From contig CALCZC010000028.1 in assembly GCA_937903605.1 (NCBI GenBank), positions 6,680 to 70,679 on the forward strand: DNA of 64,000 nt. The letters run 5' to 3'. Each line of letters begins with the position of its first letter. The stretch's first letter is position 1. This DNA comes from an uncultured bacterium. GTDB lineage: Bacteria > Patescibacteriota > Patescibacteriia > Magasanikbacterales > GWA2-37-8. The notes under the pieces are model-generated. The model saw only the letters and a program-made list of their open reading frames with translations. It searched no databases and was not told where the DNA came from. The position numbers and the translations under genes are program-made. Below are positions 11,448 to 61,700 of the stretch, in pieces.

Positions 11448-11529
11448 GCGGGCGTGGTGAAATTGGTATACACGCATGCCTTAGGAGCATGTACCTAACG
11501 GTTTGAGAGTTCGAGTCTCTCCGCCCGCA
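11448..11529 (+). tRNA. tRNA-Leu (anticodon TAG), long variable arm
   Basis: Acceptor GCGGGCG/CGCCCGC. Anticodon loop CTTAGGA. T-arm GAGAGTTCGAGTCTCTC. 82 nt, no CCA. Confidence 0.8.
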
Positions 11530-11725
11530 CTAAGAGGAATGCAATAGTTTGCATTCCGTCCGAGAGACGAGAACGGCGGAGCGATATTTGGCGAGTTTTT
11601 TGACGAGCCAAATCGCGAGTTGGTGGTCAGACAAAATTTTCGGAAGAAAATTTTAGTCGCGACCGAGTCTCTCCGCCCGCACGACGCTAAGCGTCCCACT
11701 AAGAGAAATACAATAGTTTGTTATA
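11510..11725 (+). repeat. Direct duplication of the tRNA-Leu(TAG) 3' end plus ~23 nt of flank, copies ~165 bp apart
   Basis: CGAGTCTCTCCGCCCGCAC...ACTAAGAG.AAT.CAATAGTTTG occurs at 11510-11560 and again at 11665-11722. The second copy has a 15-nt hairpin insert (GACGCTAAGCGTCCC). Confidence 0.7.
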
Positions 11726-12461: not shown

Positions 12462-15436
<2,975 letters not shown>

Positions 15437-15502
15437 AAAGCATTAAGTAGTGCTTTGAGTGTTCCAAAATATTCTTTTAAATAATTCAAATTTGAGTGTA
15501 GA

Positions 15503-15614
15503 GTTCAGGTGCTTTAAGCGAAGGGGTCACACCCGATCCCATCCCGAACTCGGTAGTTAAGCTCTTCTGCGCCGATGATAGCCCTAAAGGCAAAAGTAGG
15601 CCAGCGCCTGAACT
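15503..15614 (+). rRNA. rrf: 5S ribosomal RNA
   Basis: CCCGATCCCATCCCGAACTCGGTAGTTAAGC...GCGCCGATGATAG. Helix I closes with GTTCAGGTGC/GCGCCTGAAC. Confidence 0.85.
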
Positions 15615-53794: not shown

Positions 53795-55996
53795 TTAATT
53801 ACATTCTTTATTACTACATTTCTCTATACCCTTTCTATCAATTATCATTGGCGCCTTACATTCTTCGCAGAATTTTCCAGTTGGTTTATCCCAGAGTGCG
53901 AAATCGCAATCAGGATATTTGCTGCAACCAAAAAACATTTTCCCGCGTTTACTACGTTTTTGTATAATATCACCGTCTTTGCATTTGGGACATTTCATGT
54001 CTATCTTTATTTCTATATTTTTTATATTTTTGCATTTTGGATAATTGGCGCAAGCCATAAAAGGACCGAAACGTCCGACTTTCTTGACCATATCTCCGCC
54101 ACATTTTTCACATTTTTCACCAGTGATTTCTTCCGGAGTTTTTTCTTCTACTTTTCCGTCTTTGCCGATATTTTTGGTATTTTTACATTCCGGATATCCG
54201 GTGCAAGCCAAAAATTTTCCGTAACGGGAAGTTTTTATCACCATCGGCTTACCGCATTTTTCACAAATTTCATTTGTTTCCATTTCAACAATATCTTTTT
54301 TGACCAATTCTTTATCTTTGGTTTCCAGGTTTTCTTTAAAAGGAGTATAAAAAGCACGGATTACCGGAGGCCATTGTTTTTTACCCTCGGCTATTTCATC
54401 AAGCGATTCTTCCATTTCCGCAGTAAATTTATAATCCACGATTTGCGCGAAATGTTCTACCAGCACATCATTGACCAAAAAGGCGATGTCAGTCGGAGCA
54501 AGACGTTTTTTTTCATCGCGTTCTACGTATCCGCGACTTTCAATTGTAGCGATAGTTGGCGCATAAGTACTCGGACGGCCGATACCATATTCTTCCAGAG
54601 CTTTTACCAGGGTGGCATCACTATAGCGAGCCGGTGGTTCGGTAAAATGTTGTTCTGGTTTGAGTTCTTCACAATTAACCTTGTCGCCGATGACAAGTTC
54701 CGGTAAAGTGTTTTCTTTAGTTTTTTCCGGGAATAATTTCAAGAAACCGTCAAAAATAATAGTCTGACCGGTGGCGCGAAATAAATAATCGTTTTCAGAT
54801 ACCACATCCATACTCACGGAATTCAATTCCGCTTCGGCCATCTGTGTGGCTACGGCTCGACGCCAGATCAAATCATAAAGTCTATATTGATTTCTATCCA
54901 AATATGGCTCTACTGATTTTGGTGTACGAAAAGCGTCGGTTGGACGAATAGCTTCGTGGGCTTCTTGAGCGTTCTTGTTTTTGTTTTTATAAAATCTCGG
55001 TGCGGATAAAGAGTATTTTTTTCCAAATTCTTTTTCAATCACCTCTCTGGATTCATTGAGAAATTTTTCCGATAAATTTACCGCATCGGTTCTCATATAA
55101 GTGATGAGACCGACGTGTCCCTCGGTTCCGATTTCAATACCTTCATAAAGTTTTTGCGCCAGCATCATGGTTTGTTTGGCGGAAAATCCCAGAGCGTTGT
55201 TGGCTTCTTGTTGTAGGGTGGAAGTGGTAAACGGAGGTAGGGGATTACGTTTAGTTTGTTTTTTCTCCAAATCTTTTATCGTGTATTTTTGTTTTTCCAA
55301 ATCAGCAATAATTTTATTTACTTGTTCGGCATTTTTCAAATCCATTTTATCCAATTTTTTGTTTGCGACAGAATGTAGCTTGGTATTAAAAATATTTTTT
55401 TCTTTACTAAAAACACCCTCCAAACTCCAGTATTCCTCGGTGTTAAAAGCTTTGATTTCACGTTCGCGTTCCACTATCAAACGCACAGCCACAGATTGCA
55501 CACGTCCGGCAGATAGTCCTTTGGCGACTTTACGCCACAGAAATGGGGACAGTTCGTAACCGACCAAACGATCAAGCACGCGACGAGCTTGTTGAGCGTC
55601 TACCAAATTCATATCCAATTCACGAGGATGCTTCATAGCCTCTTCAAGTGCATGTTTGGTAATTTCATGGAAAGTGATGCGTTTGAGTTCTTTTTTCTTC
55701 AAATCCAAAATTTCGGACAAATGCCAAGCAATAGCTTCTCCTTCGCGGTCCTCATCGCTTGCGAGTATCACTTCGTCGGCTTTTTTGGCCGCTTCTTTGA
55801 GTTCTTTGACGACTTTGGTTTTATCCTTGGAAACTATGTATTTTGGAGCAAAATCATGCTCAATATCAATACTTAATTTACTTTTTGGTAAATCTCGGAC
55901 ATGACCAAAAGAGGATTTTATTATAAAATCCTTGCCCAAAAAACGGGAAATTGTCTTGGCTTTTGTCGGAGATTCTACGATTACGAGTGTTTTCAT
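53795..55996 (-). CDS. topA: DNA topoisomerase I with C-terminal zinc ribbons
   Basis: MKTLVIVESPTKAKTI (Toprim), active-site region, and repeated C-x2-C...C-x2-C modules. True start is ATG at 55996; the ORF-track 56158 is too far upstream. Confidence 0.9.
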   Translation of the reverse strand: MKTLVIVESPTKAKTISRFLGKDFIIKSSFGHVRDLPKSKLSIDIEHDFAPKYIVSKDKTKVVKELKEAAKKADEVILASDEDREGEAIAWHLSEILDLKKKELKRITFHEITKHALEEAMKHPRELDMNLVDAQQARRVLDRLVGYELSPFLWRKVAKGLSAGRVQSVAVRLIVEREREIKAFNTEEYWSLEGVFSKEKNIFNTKLHSVANKKLDKMDLKNAEQVNKIIADLEKQKYTIKDLEKKQTKRNPLPPFTTSTLQQEANNALGFSAKQTMMLAQKLYEGIEIGTEGHVGLITYMRTDAVNLSEKFLNESREVIEKEFGKKYSLSAPRFYKNKNKNAQEAHEAIRPTDAFRTPKSVEPYLDRNQYRLYDLIWRRAVATQMAEAELNSVSMDVVSENDYLFRATGQTIIFDGFLKLFPEKTKENTLPELVIGDKVNCEELKPEQHFTEPPARYSDATLVKALEEYGIGRPSTYAPTIATIESRGYVERDEKKRLAPTDIAFLVNDVLVEHFAQIVDYKFTAEMEESLDEIAEGKKQWPPVIRAFYTPFKENLETKDKELVKKDIVEMETNEICEKCGKPMVIKTSRYGKFLACTGYPECKNTKNIGKDGKVEEKTPEEITGEKCEKCGGDMVKKVGRFGPFMACANYPKCKNIKNIEIKIDMKCPKCKDGDIIQKRSKRGKMFFGCSKYPDCDFALWDKPTGKFCEECKAPMIIDRKGIEKCSNKECN

Positions 55997-56126
55997 AAAA
56001 TTATTAAACTCTATACTACTATATAGTTCCGTTTTCGTCAATTCTATGTAAAAAATTGTTATCTTGCAAAAATCGTCAAATTGTGCTATAATTAGATAAA
56101 CAAAGGAGTATTTTAAATAATTTGTT

Positions 56127-57956
56127 ATGTCCGAAAATCCAAATTTTCTCAAAAACAAATATAATCTTCACACCAGTGAGGAAGTTTTGCGTGCCAAAAA
56201 ACGCACAGAAAGTAAAACCGGAGAAAAGGTCAAAGAAGACCCGTCTTCGCTTATTCAAAATTATCTAAACCGTTTCAAAGAAATTACTGACCGCAAAGAC
56301 CCTACTGACAGAGAACAAGGTATAGAAGCTCTCAAACGCGTCCTTTATCGTGACAGTATTATCAAGCCCGAAGATATCCCACAGTCATATTGGGAAGCCC
56401 AAGCTCGTTTAGCTCGTGAACAAGGTCATGGCGATATTGAGATTACAGAGGAAATGAAAGACAGTGGTGCGGAAATACTTATCACTGATCAAAAAAGCAG
56501 TTTAGATACTTGGATTGATTATATGGCATCTCAAGATGCCACTTATCCAGACTGGCTTAAATATTTTGCCATTCGCAGTGTTTTGAATTTGGGCGAATAC
56601 GATAAAGAAAAAAAAGTTTTTTCCAAACGATCCAAAGGCACAGTCAAACCATTTCCCGACCTTAACCGTGAAGCTCTAGCTTACGTTTTGGATGCCGTGG
56701 AGAAAAAATATCAAAAGCAAGGTATTGATTTGGAAAATCTTAACGAAGAAGATAAAAAAACTTTTGATAAAATACTCAAAGAAGAAAATTTCGGCAAGCT
56801 TTACGCTTTTGCTATTGATAAAGTTACTCCGACCGAAGTTAATCTCTTAACTGTAACAGAAGGGCAATGGAAAAAATACGATAAAGACAGCGACCATATG
56901 CCTTTGGTAAAATCTCTGCAAGGACACGGCACCGGTTGGTGTACAGCCGGCGAAAGTACTGCTCAAACCCAGCTTCAAGGCGGAGACTTTTATGTTTATT
57001 ACTCTCTTGATAAAGACGACAAACCAACTATTCCTCGTGCCGCAATCAGAATGCAAGAAAACAAAATTGCCGAGGTTCGTGGAATAGGGCCTGACCAAAA
57101 TCTTGATCCCTACATTGGCGAAGTGGTTAAACAAAAAATGACTGAATTTTCTGATGGACAACTTTATGAGAAAAAGGCGGGAGATATGAAATTCTTAACT
57201 CAAATAGACAAAAAAACCCAAAATCAAGAACCACTAACAAAAGAAGAACTAAATTTTCTTTATGAAGTAGATGAAAAAATACAAGGTTTTGGTTATAAAG
57301 ATGATCCAAGAGTAAAAGAAATCAGAAACCAAAGAAACCCGGAGCAAGATATGTCCATAATTTTTGATTGTACCCCTGACCAAATCGCCCACAATCAAAA
57401 AGAAGTGAACGAAAACACCAAAGCCTATGTTGGCGAACTATTTCCCAATATTTTTCAAACTCTCCAAACTGAACATATTTACACTGAATTTCCCGAAGGT
57501 AAAATCAGAAGATATAATATTGAAATTGGTGGCAAAAGCAAAAAAGAACTGGAAGTGGAAATGAAAAAACAAAAGATTACCATTAGTAGTTATGCGCAAG
57601 ATATGTTAAACAGTTCGGATTTCGCCACTTCAAAAAAAGCAGAAAGAGAAACCCTTATCCGTTTAAGAGTCGCTGATCTCAAAACAAAAAATCAAACCAC
57701 GGATGAAATATTTGCTAAAGCCAAAGAATTGGGCCTTGAACTCTGTCCTCCTGAAACCGGACCGCAATTTAGATTGCAAAACCCAACTCAAGAATATATT
57801 ATAATTGGAATGAAACAAATCGCCGACCGTTACGACTATCCGAGCGTGTTCAACTTGGACAGCGATAGCGATGGTCTGTGGCTCAACGGCATCATTGCCC
57901 GTCCTGGCCTCAGGTGGAATGATGACAGCAAGTTCGTTTTCCGTCTTCGTAAGTGA
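56127..57956 (+). CDS. DGR target (variable) protein, 609 aa, variable region at the extreme C-terminus; no obvious signal peptide
   Basis: C-terminal ...YPSVFNLDSDSDGLWLNGIIARPGLRWNDDSKFVFRLRK is encoded by the VR. Ends with TGA. Confidence 0.8.
   Translation: MSENPNFLKNKYNLHTSEEVLRAKKRTESKTGEKVKEDPSSLIQNYLNRFKEITDRKDPTDREQGIEALKRVLYRDSIIKPEDIPQSYWEAQARLAREQGHGDIEITEEMKDSGAEILITDQKSSLDTWIDYMASQDATYPDWLKYFAIRSVLNLGEYDKEKKVFSKRSKGTVKPFPDLNREALAYVLDAVEKKYQKQGIDLENLNEEDKKTFDKILKEENFGKLYAFAIDKVTPTEVNLLTVTEGQWKKYDKDSDHMPLVKSLQGHGTGWCTAGESTAQTQLQGGDFYVYYSLDKDDKPTIPRAAIRMQENKIAEVRGIGPDQNLDPYIGEVVKQKMTEFSDGQLYEKKAGDMKFLTQIDKKTQNQEPLTKEELNFLYEVDEKIQGFGYKDDPRVKEIRNQRNPEQDMSIIFDCTPDQIAHNQKEVNENTKAYVGELFPNIFQTLQTEHIYTEFPEGKIRRYNIEIGGKSKKELEVEMKKQKITISSYAQDMLNSSDFATSKKAERETLIRLRVADLKTKNQTTDEIFAKAKELGLELCPPETGPQFRLQNPTQEYIIIGMKQIADRYDYPSVFNLDSDSDGLWLNGIIARPGLRWNDDSKFVFRLRK
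57823..57953 (+). repeat. DGR variable repeat (VR)
   Basis: Aligns without gaps to 58254-58384. All 15 differences fall at positions where the TR has A (VR has G, T or C there). Confidence 0.9.
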
Positions 57957-58253
57957 TTTTTAAAAAATTTATAACTTTCGGTTACTTTGATTCTTTTGTT
58001 CTTGGATTCTTATAAAAAATTTGCTATAATTTAGTTAGTTTGATTATTTTGAAAGGTCATGGCTTTTCAACATCTCTCTGGCAATTGTAAATTGAGTTAT
58101 AAACGGTTACGGCTTTTTACAGAGTGATTTATATATTGTCTAACAAAAAGAAAACACTTGGTATGGAAAACTGGCGGATTTTAGATCCCAAATAAAATAC
58201 AGCCCAATGTTATTTTCACATAGGCAGTGTAATAGAAGGTTTTCCATATAAAA

Positions 58254-58384
58254 CCGACCGTAACGACAATCCGAACGTGTTCAACTTGAACAGCAATAGC
58301 GATGATCTGTGGCTCAACAACAACAATGCCCGTCCTGACAACAGGTGGAATGATGACAACAAGTTCGTTTTCCGTCTTCGAAAG
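58254..58384 (+). repeat. DGR template repeat (TR), non-coding, Asn-codon (AAC)-rich
   Basis: ...AACTTGAACAGCAATAGCGATGATCTGTGGCTCAACAACAACAATGCCCGTCCTGACAACAGGTGGAATGATGACAACAAG... Adenine-rich counterpart of the VR. Confidence 0.9.
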
Positions 58385-58401
58385 TTTTATCTTTTCCACG
58401 C

Positions 58402-58749
58402 CTACAAAGCGTGGTTTTTCTTTTCCGGATTGTTTAAACTATTTTTCCAACCGCCAAACATTTTCCCTATTTCTTCTATTTTAGAAGAAATTGTTTCATA
58501 GTGGGTGTGCGCGATAATTTTTCCTTCCCAAGCAGTGTAAATTAAAAATTTCAGAGTATCCAGTATTACTAAACAATTTGTTATTTTTTCCGCTTTATTT
58601 TCTTTATTGCTAAAATATGTCAAATAAGCAAGCTCCATCAAATCTAAAAATTTATTTTCAATTCGCGCGCCCAAGGTATAGCGTGTGCTTTTTTGCATAT
58701 GAATAGCGATATTAATCCACGACAAATAAAGTTCTTTGACCTTGTTCAA
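58402..58749 (-). CDS. avd: Avd-like accessory variability determinant (four-helix-bundle protein)
   Basis: ~100-115 aa. C-terminal KIEEIGKMFGGWKNS resembles Bordetella phage Avd ...IAEVGRILGSWIARV. Helical and basic. TTG start at 58749, or internal ATG (M17). Confidence 0.5.
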   Translation of the reverse strand: MNKVKELYLSWINIAIHMQKSTRYTLGARIENKFLDLMELAYLTYFSNKENKAEKITNCLVILDTLKFLIYTAWEGKIIAHTHYETISSKIEEIGKMFGGWKNSLNNPEKKNHAL

Positions 58750-58832
58750 GATAGAAGCGTTGTTGAAAGTGCGGGGGGGGGGGTAGAAGATGTGATCATA
58801 AATATAATGAAATTATTTCTAAAGGAAATTTA

Positions 58833-59783
58833 TTGGTTTCTTGGCAGGAATTTTTATCCGACAAGAAAGAACGTAAAGATATAGCCGAGTTTATGATCAA
58901 TTTCTCCGGTAATATTTCAAATTTGTGTAATGAATTAAAAGAAAAAACATATAAACATAATGATTATATTGCATTTAAAATAAACGATCCCAAACCGCGC
59001 GATATTCACAAAGCGAGTGTACGAGACAGGGTTGTCCATCACGCCATTTATAGAATTTTGTATCCGTATTTTGATAGACAGTTTATTTTTGATTCTTATT
59101 CCTGTCGGATTGATAAAGGAACACACCGGGCGATTGGTCGTTTTGAGAATTTTGCGCGAAAAGTTTCCTTAAACAGCAAGCGGACGGTTTGGGTTTTGAA
59201 ATGCGATATCAGAAAATTTTTTGCCAATATTGATCATCTTATTTTGAAAACAATATTAGACAAACATATTTTAGATAAAGATATTGTCTGGCTTTTATCG
59301 CAAATAATAGACAGTTTTAACACAGCGGGTAAAGAAAATGTCGGCTTGCCACTTGGAAATCTAACCTCTCAGCTTCTGGTTAATATTTACATGAACGAAT
59401 TTGATCAATTTGTTAAACGAAAATTAAAAATCAAATATTATGTTCGTTATGCCGATGATTTTATCATTTTACACGAAAATAAAAGTTTTTTACAGGATTT
59501 GATTTTGGAAATAAGCGAATTTTTGGAAACAAAATTGAAACTTTTATTACATCCAAAAAAAGTTAGTATAAAAACTTTCAATTCGGGTGTGGATTTTTTA
59601 GGTTGGGTCTGTTTTTCAAACCATAAAGTATTGCGGACAAAAACAAAGAGACGAATGTTTAAAAGAATAGAGAAACATAAAACTAAAGAAACATTGGCTT
59701 CATATTTGGGGATGTTGAGTCATGGAAATGCGTATAAATTGAGTAAGAAGATAAAATTTATAACTCCAACCCCGCTTGTTTAA
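58833..59783 (+). CDS. DGR reverse transcriptase; N-terminus unresolved (frame open from 58767, no in-frame ATG; possibly fused to ORF 58693 through the poly-G tract)
   Basis: RDRVVHHAI (RT motif 2 region), GLPLGNLTSQLLVNIYMNEFD (DGR-specific motif 4), YVRYADDFIIL (YxDD). Confidence 0.85.
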   Translation: MVSWQEFLSDKKERKDIAEFMINFSGNISNLCNELKEKTYKHNDYIAFKINDPKPRDIHKASVRDRVVHHAIYRILYPYFDRQFIFDSYSCRIDKGTHRAIGRFENFARKVSLNSKRTVWVLKCDIRKFFANIDHLILKTILDKHILDKDIVWLLSQIIDSFNTAGKENVGLPLGNLTSQLLVNIYMNEFDQFVKRKLKIKYYVRYADDFIILHENKSFLQDLILEISEFLETKLKLLLHPKKVSIKTFNSGVDFLGWVCFSNHKVLRTKTKRRMFKRIEKHKTKETLASYLGMLSHGNAYKLSKKIKFITPTPLV

Positions 59784-59851
59784 AAGTGCCATGGTATTTT
59801 ATTTTACAAAAGCTGATTTTAATGATAAAATTTTTGCATTATTTATCAAAT

Positions 59852-60472
59852 ATGAATATTTACCTTGACGAATCATACAATTTACAAAAAACAAGAGGTA
59901 AAATGTTTGTCAGTATCAACGGTTTTGCTGTTTTTGACGACCGACTATTGAGAAAACGTTGGAAAATTGTAAGAAAGGATTATGTACGATCAAAAAGACG
60001 TGTTCATGCGACCGACTCTTATTTTGAAGAATTAAGAAAAAAAAGTTTGAAGTTATTAAACAGAAATGATATTAGCGTTTTTTCGGTATTCCAAGTAATT
60101 CAGGAATTGCCGTATGATTATTTTGATAAAGAGGGCATAAAGTTTGATTTTTTGTATGCCTCTTTACTGAAAAAGTTGTTTGTGGAAATGTCCTTGGGAG
60201 AGTATAAAAAAATAAGAATATTTATAGATGCCAGAAAACACAAAGGTGGAAAATTGGGAGAAAAAAAGTTTCAAAAAGAGATTGAAGATTTTTTAAAAAA
60301 TAAATTTTTCAACACCGTTTGTATTTACAAAGCCACCCCGTCATATTTGGATGTTTTGGTTGAATTATCCGATTTTGTTTCTAATACTTTTTATAGGGAA
60401 TATCAAAATAATTCTACGCATGTATTTAAAGATGCCGGCATTAGATTTATACAAATCAAAAATCCGCTGTGA
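59852..60472 (+). CDS. DUF3800-family protein
   Basis: N-terminal MNIYLDESYN matches the DUF3800 IY(I/L)DES signature. Confidence 0.5.
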   Translation: MNIYLDESYNLQKTRGKMFVSINGFAVFDDRLLRKRWKIVRKDYVRSKRRVHATDSYFEELRKKSLKLLNRNDISVFSVFQVIQELPYDYFDKEGIKFDFLYASLLKKLFVEMSLGEYKKIRIFIDARKHKGGKLGEKKFQKEIEDFLKNKFFNTVCIYKATPSYLDVLVELSDFVSNTFYREYQNNSTHVFKDAGIRFIQIKNPL

Positions 60473-60620
60473 TGCGGATCTTTTAAAAGCGCCTTTTGGG
60501 AATGTCTTTGTTTCAGCGGGATGTTCCTAAATGGGAACGCCCTCCACGAAGCTTTACCCTAAGGACTTATCTTCTAACCTGATTATACAATATTTGTATA
60601 AATGTGTCAATATCGCCATT

Positions 60621-61700
60621 TTAGGCGATATTTTTATAAAAATTCATATTTCCGGCGTTTTTGATAATACCCCTCATTTCCAAAAGCACCATGATAGTGC
60701 TGACTTGAGGGGCGGGTAACCCTGATTCGCGGATGATAAAATCAATGTTTTTTGGCTCGGTTGAGAGAAAATTTAGTATTTTTTCTTCTTCCGGAGAAAA
60801 ATTCATCACTGATTGTTTTATGGTTTGTTCAACCGCCATGTTTAAATTTAGAATTTCCAAAATATCAGTGGCTTTCAGCACCAATTTGGCATTTTTTTGC
60901 AATAATAAATTACCCCCGGCTCCCAAAATAGATGTTATAGGGTGGGGAAAACAAAGAACTTCGCGATTGTATTCACGGGCGTTTTCCGCAGTAATGAGAG
61001 ATCCGGAACCCACAGGAGCTTCTACCACCAGAGTTGCGGGAGTGGATCCGGCAATGAGGCGATTACGAAGAGGAAAAGAATAAGCGGTTGGTTCAAAACC
61101 GGGTGGATATTCGGAAATCACCGCTCCGTCGTTTTTGATAATCTCTTCAGCCAGTTTTTGATTGGAAGCGGGATAAATTTCTCTTTGCACTACACTACTG
61201 CCCAGATATGCCACGGTTTTTCCACCGGCTTTCAGAGTGTATTCATGAACCAAAGCGTCTATCCCAAGCGCTAGTCCGGATACGATAACAAAGCCTCTAT
61301 TCACCAAAGGGGCGGTGATTTGTTCCAACGCCATTTTGGCGTAAGTGCTATGTTTGCGCGTGCCAACGACACTTAGGCTGCGAGGGGTAAGTGGTGGAAT
61401 TTTACCGCGCACAAAAAGAGTAAAAGGCGGATCCGGAATTTTTTTGAGCAGTTCAGGGTATTCTGCATCATTTATATTTATAATTCTGACATTTTCTTTA
61501 TTCAAAATTTCTTGTAGTTTTTCTTTGGTTTGCTGTTCGCGCCAAGAGATAAATTCTGCGGATATATTTTCTTCCCAGCCCGCACTCATAAAGTCAGACA
61601 CCTCGGCATTCCAAATATCTTTTGGGTTAATAAAATAATTCACCGCCTTTTTAAAGCGGGAATAGGTGATCTTAGGAAAAAACGACAACAGTAAGTACAT
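60621..61700 (-). CDS. dprA: DNA processing protein DprA (Smf)
   Basis: Rossmann-like core VVSGLALGIDALVHEYTLKAGGKTVAYLGSSV and a C-terminal winged-helix region. Confidence 0.85.
   Translation of the reverse strand: MYLLLSFFPKITYSRFKKAVNYFINPKDIWNAEVSDFMSAGWEENISAEFISWREQQTKEKLQEILNKENVRIININDAEYPELLKKIPDPPFTLFVRGKIPPLTPRSLSVVGTRKHSTYAKMALEQITAPLVNRGFVIVSGLALGIDALVHEYTLKAGGKTVAYLGSSVVQREIYPASNQKLAEEIIKNDGAVISEYPPGFEPTAYSFPLRNRLIAGSTPATLVVEAPVGSGSLITAENAREYNREVLCFPHPITSILGAGGNLLLQKNAKLVLKATDILEILNLNMAVEQTIKQSVMNFSPEEEKILNFLSTEPKNIDFIIRESGLPAPQVSTIMVLLEMRGIIKNAGNMNFYKNIA

What the first reader, a model, noticed from the sequence alone, without database searches (positions are those of the whole stretch)
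56127..59783. Complete diversity-generating retroelement with textbook adenine-specific VR/TR divergence
The last 131 nt of the 609-aa gene (VR, 57823-57953) align without gaps to a non-coding copy 430 bp downstream (TR, 58254-58384). I count 15 substitutions, and every one sits where the TR has an A (TR A becomes VR G seven times, T seven times, C once). There are no differences at TR C, G or T positions. The TR is AAC-rich (template NPNVFNLNSNSDDLWLNNNNARPDNRWNDDNKFVFRLRK against the VR product YPSVFNLDSDSDGLWLNGIIARPGLRWNDDSKFVFRLRK). This is the mutagenic-retrohoming signature of DGRs. Downstream lies a reverse transcriptase with the DGR-diagnostic LPLGNLTSQLLVNIY motif and YADD. A four-helix-bundle Avd-like gene sits between TR and RT, on the opposite strand, which is unusual. 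The target protein has no signal peptide, unlike most DGR targets, and its VR is short and at the extreme C-terminus, so it may be an intracellular or non-classically exported ligand-binding protein. DGRs are known to be enriched in CPR lineages, but each target family is essentially uncharacterised.
Basis: seen in the sequence. Interest (0 to 1): 0.95.

Follow-up and report, generated by a model that had tools for sequence, protein, structure and literature searches.

The report
Candidate-phyla DGR with possible on/off switch
This is a real diversity-generating retroelement of a type already known in candidate-phyla bacteria, and it also carries a conserved structured RNA and a slippery poly-G tract at the start of its reverse transcriptase gene that may switch the hypermutation on and off.

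Summary
VR (57823-57954) and TR (58254-58385) align without gaps. All 15 differences lie at TR adenines (P about 3e-9), split 8 G, 6 T and 1 C, not 7/7/1. The RT matches the Bordetella phage DGR RT best. Avd passes Pfam's bAvd cut-off. The target's last 195 residues model confidently as a C-type-lectin fold.

The element is a member of the known CPR clade with the published TR-(avd)-RT layout, so the inverted avd is normal there. A target without signal peptide is also typical, and the VR is not short.

The target family is large: at least 2851 clusters, in at least 534 species genomes. About half of the informative loci have no DGR nearby. Near-identical family members differ almost only at VR positions.

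Three features were not in the finding:
- A roughly 215-nt structured RNA with strong covariation lies just upstream of TR and has no Rfam match.
- A conserved terminator-like hairpin follows TR.
- Poly-G or (GA)n sits at the RT 5' end in most related cassettes. Here it is G10, G11 or G12 in assemblies of one population. The window's G11 puts the RT out of frame with every upstream start.

VR is identical in all eight assemblies, so current activity of this copy is unproven.

The parts
56127..57956 (+). DGR target gene, 609 aa. Residues 1-414 are a conserved region of unknown function whose most conserved motif is GHGTGWCTAGESTA. Residues 415-609 form a C-type-lectin-fold domain that ends in the VR.
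   Evidence: ORF. No Pfam, NCBIfam, PHROG or PADLOC hit. At least 2851 homologous clusters at 56-65% identity over the full length. Full-length model pLDDT 86.9. No transmembrane segment or signal peptide.
57369..57953 (+). C-type-lectin-fold ligand-binding domain of the target (aa 415-609).
57823..57954 (+). Variable repeat (VR), the last 44 codons of the target. The 5' edge may lie at 57819.
   Evidence: Ungapped alignment to TR with 15 mismatches, all at TR adenines. In the family alignment invariant and hypervariable (>3 bits) columns alternate at exactly these positions.
57931..57954 (+). IMH-like 3' end of VR (GTTCGTTTTCCGTCTTCGTAAGT). TR has no adenine here except its final AAA. This segment holds the fixed TR/VR difference at 57950.
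   Evidence: The TR/VR tails of 20 related cassettes differ systematically in this hexamer: VR CGCAAG against TR CGAAAG or CGCCAG. This rests on family comparison only; function is inferred.
57957..58019 (+). AT-rich spacer with CTTTG(A/G)-type repeats of about 9-10 nt between the VR stop codon and the TR promoter. There is no GC-rich inverted repeat.
   Evidence: TRF finds period 8-9 at 57986-58011. Similar repeats appear in all aligned loci and in the cassette-less relative L028. Only AT-rich inverted repeats were found.
58020..58030 (+). Conserved extended -10 promoter (TTTGCTATAAT), inferred to drive the TR RNA.
   Evidence: TGnTAnnnT is conserved in 16 of 18 aligned loci at the same place. 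Inferred, not shown.
58038..58249 (+). Structured 5' domain of the DGR RNA, with three helical domains (58038-58078, 58080-58140, 58161-58249) and an invariant A-rich linker (58141-58160).
   Evidence: RNAalifold predicts 62 pairs. 94% of cells are paired against 37-45% in slid controls, and 42 pairs carry compensatory changes against 16-22. A covariance model of the 3' domain hits 31 loci, all with a TR module and always just upstream of TR on the same strand. No Rfam match at E<=1.
58254..58385 (+). Template repeat (TR), non-coding and AAC-rich.
58396..58424 (+). Conserved hairpin (CCACGC...GCGTGG) followed by an invariant GGTTTTTCTT, terminator-like on the + strand only. The stop codon of the convergent avd gene lies in its loop.
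   Evidence: Terminator scan. In 17 loci there are 6 pairs, 4 of them with compensatory changes and none broken in 5.
58402..58749 (-). avd accessory gene (115 aa from TTG; gene callers give 98 aa from the ATG at 58698).
   Evidence: Pfam bAvd 2e-14, above cut-off. NCBIfam DivGenRetAVD 1.2e-17, below its cut-off. phrog_3206 'Avd protein of DGR' 2.5e-18. Homologues align from residue 1.
58773..58783 (.). Poly-G tract (G11 here), the only G/C run of 8 or more in the 64-kb window. It lies in the first codons of the RT and in the likely 5' UTR of avd.
   Evidence: G10, G11 and G12 occur in assemblies of the same population that are otherwise nearly identical. G8-G11 or (GA)n of 17-27 nt sits at the same place in 19 of 22 related junctions.
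58768..59783 (+). DGR reverse transcriptase. The conserved coding sequence starts directly after the poly-G (RRCDHKYNEIISKGNL...). The GTG at 58768 is in frame only with G10. In the window (G11) the first in-frame canonical start is the TTG at 58833, which lies inside the conserved N-terminal segment.
   Evidence: ORF. RVT_1. BPP-1 bRT is the best PDB hit, and the alignment reaches bRT residue 3 with the G10 form. Frame analysis.
59786..60472 (+). ORF of 228 aa directly after the RT, with weak DUF3800 similarity. It is part of the block missing in cassette-less relatives, but whether it belongs to the DGR is doubtful.
   Evidence: DUF3800 E 9.5e-4, 20.3 bits, just below the cut-off of 21. No tblastn match in the 80 related loci. 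Nothing in NCBIfam, PHROGs or PADLOC.

Best explanation
This is a chromosomal DGR of the Patescibacteria (CPR) clade with the TR-(avd)-RT layout, lying between topA and dprA in a Magasanikbacteria-like genome.

Inferred mechanism:
1. A conserved extended -10 promoter at 58020-58030 drives a non-coding RNA of about 385 nt.
2. That RNA consists of a 215-nt structured 5' domain, the 131-nt TR, and a hairpin plus U-tract that ends most transcripts. Read-through would run antisense across avd into the RT gene.
3. The RT, together with Avd, copies TR into cDNA and misincorporates opposite adenines.
4. The cDNA replaces the VR, up to the boundary hexamer at 57949-57954. This recodes up to 25 codons on the ligand-binding face of a C-type-lectin-fold domain at the C-terminus of a 609-aa protein that is soluble and probably cytoplasmic.

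The target is a resident gene conserved across CPR. The block RNA-TR-avd-RT(-orfX) is present in some close relatives and absent in others.

RT synthesis appears to be gated by a hypermutable tract in its first codons. G10 puts GTG/TTG start codons in frame. The window's G11 does not, so this copy is probably in an OFF phase, unless slippage or a non-canonical start rescues it.

Shown here: the A-specific VR/TR pattern, the identities of RT and Avd, the CLec fold, the RNA covariation, the conservation of the repeat tract, and the G10/G11/G12 polymorphism.

Inferred: the transcript ends, the role of the RNA as a scaffold for RT-Avd, the ON/OFF effect of the tract, and the ligand and cellular role of the target.
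For: VR/TR: 15 of 15 mismatches are at TR adenines, P 3e-9. Forty of 41 TR adenines are at codon positions 1 or 2.

RT: BPP-1 bRT is the best solved relative, with the SQ and YADD motifs; phrog_1423 at 1e-106. Avd: Pfam bAvd above cut-off.

CLec fold.

Family-level activity: inside clusters of 90% identity almost all differences fall in the last 50 residues, for example 18 of 19 and 20 of 21 variable columns. The hypervariable columns coincide with A-templated codons.

Layout: the same order, target > RNA > TR > (avd) > RT, occurs in about 30 loci, and the module is inverted as a unit in a few. It is a named architecture in PMC5758913.

RNA: covariation, hairpin.

Cassette gain or loss: L028 and L038 (topA 87-91% identical) have topA-target-dprA without the module.

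Repeat tract. The two junctions without a tract (L030, L043) instead carry an ATG right after the conserved His codon.
Against: VR and TR are identical in all eight assemblies of this population, from at least six samples, including the G10 one. No diversification of this particular copy is seen at consensus level.

Differences in the length of a long G homopolymer between short-read assemblies can be errors.

Across related loci the RT frame relative to the upstream sequence is spread evenly over the three frames. That pattern is also what a non-coding tract would give. Several loci have an ATG or TTG just after the tract.

Confidence: 0.85

Rival explanations
1. The repeat tract is not a coding-frame switch. 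It would instead be a purine-rich element of the divergent avd/RT control region (promoter spacer, 5' UTR or Shine-Dalgarno-like sequence). The RT would start at a codon just after it, possibly a non-canonical one, so the window's DGR would be constitutively competent.
For: The RT frame relative to upstream sequence is spread 7/6/9 over the three frames in 22 junctions. L023, L029, L049, L059, L073 and L087 have an ATG or TTG 2-8 codons before the conserved His, downstream of the tract, at Shine-Dalgarno-like spacing. Most (GA)n loci have no canonical start between avd and the tract.
Against: In the window and in about 10 other loci there is no ATG, GTG or TTG between the tract and the conserved N-terminal segment, which aligns to bRT residues 3-24. 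Every canonical start between avd and the tract lies in one frame, and that frame is in phase with the RT in 5 of 8 such loci. Junctions without a tract carry a canonical ATG instead.
Confidence: 0.35
2. The element is a recently inactivated DGR relic. The VR is frozen and the RT is frameshifted.
For: VR is identical in eight assemblies. The G11 frame problem stands. The only SNPs in 13.8 kb hit the avd TTG start (58747) and the conserved His codon of the RT (58797) in single samples. Many family members persist with no DGR nearby, and one such orphan cluster shows no VR variation (cluster 10; L008).
Against: There is not a single non-adenine difference between VR and TR over 131 nt. All catalytic motifs, avd, the RNA helices and the hairpin are intact. 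A G10 variant with an intact 337-aa RT exists in the same population.
Confidence: 0.12
3. VR and TR are an ordinary partial duplication that drifted apart, with an unrelated retroelement next to it.
For: None beyond the existence of a repeat.
Against: The mismatches are exclusive to adenines, P 3e-9. The same pattern recurs in about 25 independent loci, typically with 15-27 A-mismatches and 0-2 others. RT and Avd are strictly linked to it.
Confidence: 0.01

Closest known systems
Bordetella phage BPP-1 DGR (mtd-avd-TR-brt)
   Same: Both have an RT of the same family, with bRT as the best solved relative here, and an Avd partner. TR and VR are about 130 nt with adenine-only differences. The VR lies at the 3' end of a gene for a CLec-fold binding domain. 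TR needs flanking RNA on both sides (abstract of bioRxiv 10.1101/2023.10.23.563531).
   Different: This element is chromosomal in a CPR bacterium, not in a phage. avd is inverted and lies between TR and RT. Upstream of TR there is a dedicated 215-nt non-coding structured RNA rather than the end of avd. Downstream there is only a short hairpin plus U-tract in place of a spacer of about 140 nt. No GC-rich cruciform follows the VR. The target is a soluble protein, not a tail fibre. A repeat tract sits at the RT start.
CPR DGRs: the 'CPR set' and Architecture B3 of Wu et al. 2018 (PMC5758913); clade 2 of Roux et al. 2021 (PMC8144416)
   Same: The layout TR-(avd)-RT, a Patescibacteria host, and targets without recognisable membrane or other known domains. 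The published descriptions fit this locus.
   Different: I could not check whether this target family corresponds to one of their unclassified VR groups (UVR1-6), because no supplementary files are held. In the texts I could read I found no mention of the upstream structured RNA, the post-TR hairpin or the repeat tract. Paul et al. 2017 could not be read.
Treponema denticola TvpA and FGE/EgtB-type CLec-fold DGR targets
   Different: There is no sequence-level match to FGE-sulfatase or DUF1566 models. No lipoprotein or secretion signal is present. The N-terminal 414 residues are unrelated.
Simple-sequence contingency loci (poly-G in Neisseria and Campylobacter ORFs; repeat tracts in Haemophilus promoters)
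   Same: A homopolymer or dinucleotide tract sits at the extreme 5' end of an ORF or in a divergent control region, and tract length differs within one population.
   Different: The gene controlled would be the reverse transcriptase of a targeted hypermutation system, not a surface structure. No expression data exist. My literature searches found no report that links such tracts to a DGR.
RT-associated RNA motifs of Weinberg et al. 2017 (RT-1 to RT-19; RT-10 proposed to be part of a DGR; PMC5737381)
   Same: A structured non-coding RNA next to a bacterial RT gene, followed by a terminator-like hairpin.
   Different: No Rfam 15 family matches 55500-61000 at E<=1.

Membership tests
Diversity-generating retroelement (DGR) | Template/variable repeat pair whose differences are confined to template adenines | tested here: met
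   15 of 15 mismatches are at TR adenines over 131 nt, P 3.3e-9.
Diversity-generating retroelement (DGR) | Reverse transcriptase of the DGR lineage (motif 4 with SQ, YxDD) | tested here: met
   The best PDB relative is BPP-1 bRT at 1.7e-37, against 4e-22 for group II intron RTs. GNLTSQ and YADD are present. phrog_1423 at 1e-106. NCBIfam has no DGR-RT model that passed its cut-off.
Diversity-generating retroelement (DGR) | VR at the 3' end of a protein-coding target, in a variation-tolerant fold (CLec or Ig) | tested here: met
Diversity-generating retroelement (DGR) | Accessory variability determinant (Avd) | tested here: met
   Pfam bAvd at 54.4 bits against a cut-off of 40. PHROG 'Avd protein of DGR'. 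The NCBIfam equivalog scores 64 bits, below its cut-off of 80.
Diversity-generating retroelement (DGR) | IMH at the VR end, distinct from IMH* at the TR end | tested here: inconclusive
   A fixed TR/VR difference in the terminal hexamer is seen in about 20 related cassettes. This fits IMH/IMH* but has not been tested functionally.
Diversity-generating retroelement (DGR) | GC-rich inverted repeat downstream of VR (present in only about 34% of DGRs according to PMC5758913) | tested here: not met
   Only AT-rich inverted repeats follow the VR. The feature is not universal.
Diversity-generating retroelement (DGR) | Ongoing VR diversification in the population | tested here: not met
   For this copy the VR is identical in eight assemblies from at least six samples, at consensus level only. 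For the family the feature is met: differences within clusters are confined to VR positions. Read-level data are not available here.
DGR Architecture B3, TR-(avd)-RT (Wu et al. 2018) | TR, then avd on the opposite strand, then RT | tested here: met
   Coordinates. The same order occurs in about 30 related loci.
FGE-sulfatase / DUF1566 CLec sequence families | Match to the Pfam models | tested here: not met
   No Pfam hit even at E<=10 for eight family members. The similarity is at fold level only.
PcfJ-like domain (named for some CPR DGR targets in PMC5758913) | Sequence or profile similarity to PcfJ | tested here: not met
   No Pfam PcfJ hit. hhalign of the family profile against pCF10 PcfJ gives probability 0.2%.
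Known RNA families (Rfam 15, including the RT-1 to RT-19 motifs) | Covariance-model match | tested here: not met
   No match at E<=1 in 55500-61000.
Simple-sequence-repeat contingency locus | Repeat tract in the 5' coding or control region whose length varies within a population | tested here: met
   G10, G11 and G12 in otherwise near-identical assemblies. A tract is conserved at the same position in 19 of 22 junctions. Caveat: homopolymer error cannot be excluded.
Simple-sequence-repeat contingency locus | Tract length switches expression on and off | not testable with these tools
   Only frame logic is available: G10 is in frame with GTG 58768, G11 is not.

The most novel reading that the evidence does not exclude
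In this CPR clade the hypermutation machine may itself be phase-variable. A slippery poly-G or (GA)n tract in the first codons of the RT would stochastically switch targeted mutagenesis on and off within a population, and the window would hold an OFF allele. The clade would also use a dedicated 215-nt structured RNA plus a 3' hairpin as the scaffold around TR. That RNA would be a new family and would replace the avd-end and spacer segments of the Bordetella paradigm.
Probability: 0.4. Interest if true: 0.8.

Novelty: new variant of a known kind. Interest (0 to 1): 0.6.

Why it matters
The DGR itself adds one more member to a clade that is already catalogued. Four results go further.

1. The target family is one of the most widespread uncharacterised proteins of Patescibacteria. 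It is found in at least 534 species genomes, is soluble, and is diversified in some lineages and frozen in others. This gives a natural comparison for asking what an intracellular, hypervariable lectin-fold binder does in organisms that live attached to other cells.

2. The covariation-supported RNA and hairpin define the non-coding RNA of this clade precisely enough to be synthesised and tested with RT-Avd.

3. If the repeat tract really gates the RT, it would show that bacteria limit the cost of a targeted hypermutator with a second, stochastic layer of variation. It would also explain why many DGRs look silent in metagenomes.

4. A practical point follows from the tract: gene callers give this RT four different lengths (296, 316, 337 and 361 aa) from one locus.

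Tried and rejected
- Second VR: searching the window with TR adenines wild-carded found only VR and TR.
- PcfJ-like identity of the target N-terminus, a lead from PMC5758913: no Pfam hit and hhalign probability 0.2% against pCF10 PcfJ. Rejected.
- Function of the N-terminal 414 residues:
  - A profile search against PDB sequences gave only chance-level hits.
  - An exhaustive phmmer search found 1858 cluster representatives. Eight long variants carry no informative Pfam domain.
- An intron or insertion in homologues whose DNA matches were 2.3-2.4 kb long: those matches simply ran on into the translated TR.
- Rfam identity of the upstream RNA: none.
The 3' domain alone was modelled instead.
- Replicating the tract-length polymorphism in other populations through exact-protein look-ups (P0033, P0017, P0007): those loci were orphans or their contigs ended too early.
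- Using the identical VR in 13 contigs as evidence of inactivity: the assemblies differ by 0-2 bases in 13.8 kb. They are one clonal population and carry little independent information.
- Paul et al. 2017 (PMC5436926) and the supplements of Wu et al. 2018 could not be read.

Full report
**The observation**

The last 131 nt of the 609-codon ORF (57823-57953) align without gaps to a non-coding copy at 58254-58384. All 15 mismatches lie at positions where the downstream copy has A. TR holds 41 A in 131 nt, so the hypergeometric probability of this is 3.3e-9. Forty of the 41 TR adenines are at codon positions 1 or 2. Nine codons are AAC and 25 codons are mutable. No further VR exists in the window.

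**The proteins**

The RT is RVT_1. Its closest solved relative is the Bordetella phage BPP-1 DGR RT, 8ub7_A, at E 3e-36, ahead of group II intron and retron RTs. GNLTSQ aligns to GSLTSQ, and YADD is in place. It also matches phrog_1423 at 1e-106.

The minus-strand ORF 58402-58749 passes Pfam's bAvd threshold. It matches NCBIfam DivGenRetAVD below that model's cut-off and PHROG 'Avd protein of DGR'.

**Context and family**

The cassette sits between topA (53795-56158, minus strand) and dprA (60621-61700, minus strand), with parAB, relA/spoT, pth and der nearby. This is a chromosome, not a phage.

The target family is very large. At least 2851 clusters at 90% identity match over the full length at 56-65% identity. 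At least 534 species-representative genomes carry it, all Patescibacteria where named sensibly. The N-terminal 414 residues alone find 1858 cluster representatives at 50% identity.

In the family alignment the last 40 residues alternate between invariant scaffold positions and columns with more than 3 bits of entropy, and the variable columns are the A-templated codons. Inside clusters of 90% identity nearly all differences fall in the last 50 residues, for example 18 of 19 and 20 of 21 variable columns. This is direct evidence that DGRs diversify this family in nature.

Of 80 loci fetched:
- 34 carry RT, avd or the RNA next to the target.
- 18 have at least 4 kb on both sides and no DGR module.
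- 8 have no module downstream and too little sequence upstream to judge.
- 20 are too short to tell.

Two close relatives, L028 and L038 (topA 87-91% identical), have topA-target-dprA with only 0.1-0.45 kb between target and dprA. The target is therefore a resident gene. The block from the TR promoter to orfX, about 2.6 kb, has been gained or lost.

One orphan cluster (P0036, locus L008) shows no VR variation. A linked one (P0052, locus L009) does. This is a single pair and no more than suggestive.

**What is already known**

Wu et al. 2018 define Architecture B3 as TR-(avd)-RT and treat 126 CPR DGRs, most of whose targets have no recognisable domain (PMC5758913). Roux et al. 2021 describe a CPR-restricted clade 2 whose targets typically lack transmembrane or other known domains, and they expect new CLec variants there (PMC8144416). 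So the inverted avd, the missing signal peptide and the unrecognised C-terminal domain are the rule for this clade. The VR length is ordinary.

**A structured RNA upstream of TR**

The 297 nt between the target's stop codon and TR are not filler. Aligning 18 loci shows a conserved extended -10 box (TTTGCTATAAT, 58020-58030), followed by conserved blocks that run up to TR.

RNAalifold on 16 sequences predicts 62 pairs in nine helices. On that structure 94% of cells form standard pairs, against 37-45% when partners are slid by 1-3 columns. Forty-two pairs show changes on both sides, against 16-22 in the slid controls. No shuffle out of 500 reaches any of the observed measures. The window's own minimum-free-energy fold reproduces the main helices.

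A covariance model of the 3' domain finds the motif in 31 loci, many of them not in the seed. It occurs only where a TR module exists, and it is always directly upstream of TR on the TR strand, including in the loci where the module is inverted. Rfam 15 has no match at E<=1.

**A hairpin downstream of TR**

Eleven nucleotides after TR there is a 6-bp hairpin followed by an invariant GGTTTTTCTT. Seventeen loci keep it, with compensatory changes in four pairs. It looks like a terminator on the + strand only. The stop codon of the convergent avd gene lies in its loop.

I infer a discrete DGR RNA of about 385 nt. In it, the structured 5' domain and the 3' hairpin would play the part of the avd-proximal and spacer segments that the Bordetella RT-Avd complex needs. 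This rests on the abstract of bioRxiv 10.1101/2023.10.23.563531 and on my own knowledge of that system.

One untested idea remains. The invariant A-rich linker (58141-58160, AAAAAGAAAA) is complementary to the U-tract after the hairpin. The U-tract is also constrained by the avd coding sequence on the other strand, so its conservation proves nothing.

**The VR/TR boundary**

The 3'-most difference (57950) is the only one at a third codon position and involves the only third-position adenine in TR. In about 20 related cassettes TR and VR differ in this same hexamer. In five of them TR has C where VR has A, which adenine mutagenesis cannot produce. I read this as the IMH/IMH* distinction. On that reading the window shows 14 mutagenic differences plus one boundary difference.

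**A repeat tract at the RT start**

Between avd and the RT lies G11 (58773-58783), the only G/C run of 8 or more in 64 kb. At the same place 19 of 22 related junctions carry G8-G11 or (GA)n of 17-27 nt. The tract ends 13-14 nt before the conserved His codon of the RT N-terminus.

That N-terminal segment (RRCDHKYNEIISKGNLL) aligns to residues 3-19 of BPP-1 bRT, so it is coding. It lies upstream of the TTG at 58833 that a mechanical ORF list gives as the start.

Eight assemblies of this same population, from at least six samples, differ by 0-2 substitutions over 13.8 kb. They nevertheless carry three tract lengths:
- G10, which gives a 337-aa RT starting at the GTG at 58768.
- G11, as in the window. 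No in-frame ATG, GTG or TTG lies upstream of the conserved segment, and gene callers give 316 or 296 aa.
- G12, which is in frame with the ATG at 58699 and gives 361 aa.

Every canonical start codon between avd and the tract, in all loci that have one, lies in a single frame. In five of eight such loci that frame is in phase with the RT. The two junctions without a tract have an ATG immediately after the His codon instead.

This pattern is what a translational contingency switch looks like. Four caveats apply:
- Homopolymer lengths in short-read assemblies can be wrong.
- The three frames are about equally represented among loci.
- Some loci have a start codon just after the tract.
- Transcriptional slippage could blur any switch.

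Three literature searches found no report that ties such tracts to a DGR. The library is limited, and Paul et al. 2017 could not be read.

**Is this copy active?**

For activity: there is no non-adenine difference between VR and TR, and every component is intact. Against: VR and TR are identical in all eight assemblies, and the window's RT is out of phase. These assemblies are one clonal population, so the identical VR carries little weight. Read-level data are needed.

**Verdict**

The finding is a correct identification of a DGR that belongs to a known, CPR-specific kind. On its own it is a new member. The upstream structured RNA, the post-TR hairpin and above all the conserved, length-polymorphic repeat at the RT start make the clade a new variant worth experimental follow-up. 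Interest is 0.6.

Noticed in passing
window 58773-58783; related loci listed: Poly-G (G8-G11) or (GA)n of 17-27 nt is conserved at the avd/RT junction in 19 of 22 related cassettes. In this population it is G10, G11 or G12 depending on the sample, and the three lengths give gene calls of 337, 316/296 and 361 aa for the same RT.
   Followed up: partly
window 58695, 58747, 58797: Apart from the G-tract, the only substitutions among eight assemblies (13.8 kb or 3.3 kb compared) all lie at the avd/RT junction. One is in the avd 5' region. One destroys the avd TTG start (58747 C>A). One changes the conserved His codon of the RT (58797 C>A).
   Followed up: no
window 59786-60472: An ORF of 228 aa starts 3 nt after the RT stop codon and has borderline DUF3800 similarity (20.3 bits against a cut-off of 21). 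It is absent from all 80 related loci. It lies inside the block that the cassette-less relatives L028 and L038 lack. DUF3800 genes are known to associate with unexplained structured RNAs (PMC5737381).
   Followed up: partly
L028 9893-9999 and L038 9893-10346, compared with window 57957-60620: Close relatives (topA 87-91% identical) have the target directly followed by dprA, with no RNA, TR, avd or RT. The CTTTG-type repeats after the VR are still present in L028.
   Followed up: partly
window 57957-58019 and the same region of 18 loci: Repeats of CTTTG(A/G)-like units, phased at about 9-10 nt, fill the space between the target's stop codon and the TR promoter in all loci. They may be bent DNA, an UP-like element or a protein-binding array.
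   Followed up: no
L009 8001-14817: Two tandem copies of target + RNA + TR lie about 3.1 kb apart, with identical last 135 nt and identical RNA scores, ahead of one avd-RT pair. This could be a duplication or an assembly artefact.
   Followed up: no
L087 5407-5817: Two copies of the RNA 3' domain are present, and the VR-TR spacer is 694 nt instead of about 350.
   Followed up: no
L023 130-3408; L012 and L055: In L023, avd and RT follow the target directly, with no detectable TR or RNA motif on the contig. In L012 and L055 an inverted RT abuts the target, with no detectable avd or RNA.
   Followed up: no
L093 4416-5076, L094 4400-5024: In the P0033 loci a small GIY-YIG ORF (86 aa) lies about 520 nt after the target, followed by a minus-strand ORF cut off by the contig end.
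   Followed up: no
L010, L044, L046, L048, L057 (contig ends): Several contigs stop inside or just beyond avd, close to the TR and repeat-tract region. This would fit assembly breaks caused by population heterogeneity there.
   Followed up: no
window 12462-15612: A 23S and a 5S rRNA gene are present with no 16S gene upstream in the window; a tRNA-Leu lies at 11448-11530. The rRNA operon is apparently unlinked.
   Followed up: no
window 56910-56950 (aa 262-275 of the target): The most conserved stretch of the whole target family, SLQGHGTGWCTAGESTA, fits the Q-x-x-G-x-G pattern of GNAT acetyl-CoA-binding loops. Weak GNAT fold hits and a weak GNAT Pfam hit point the same way. The reading of the pattern is from memory and was not tested.
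   Followed up: partly
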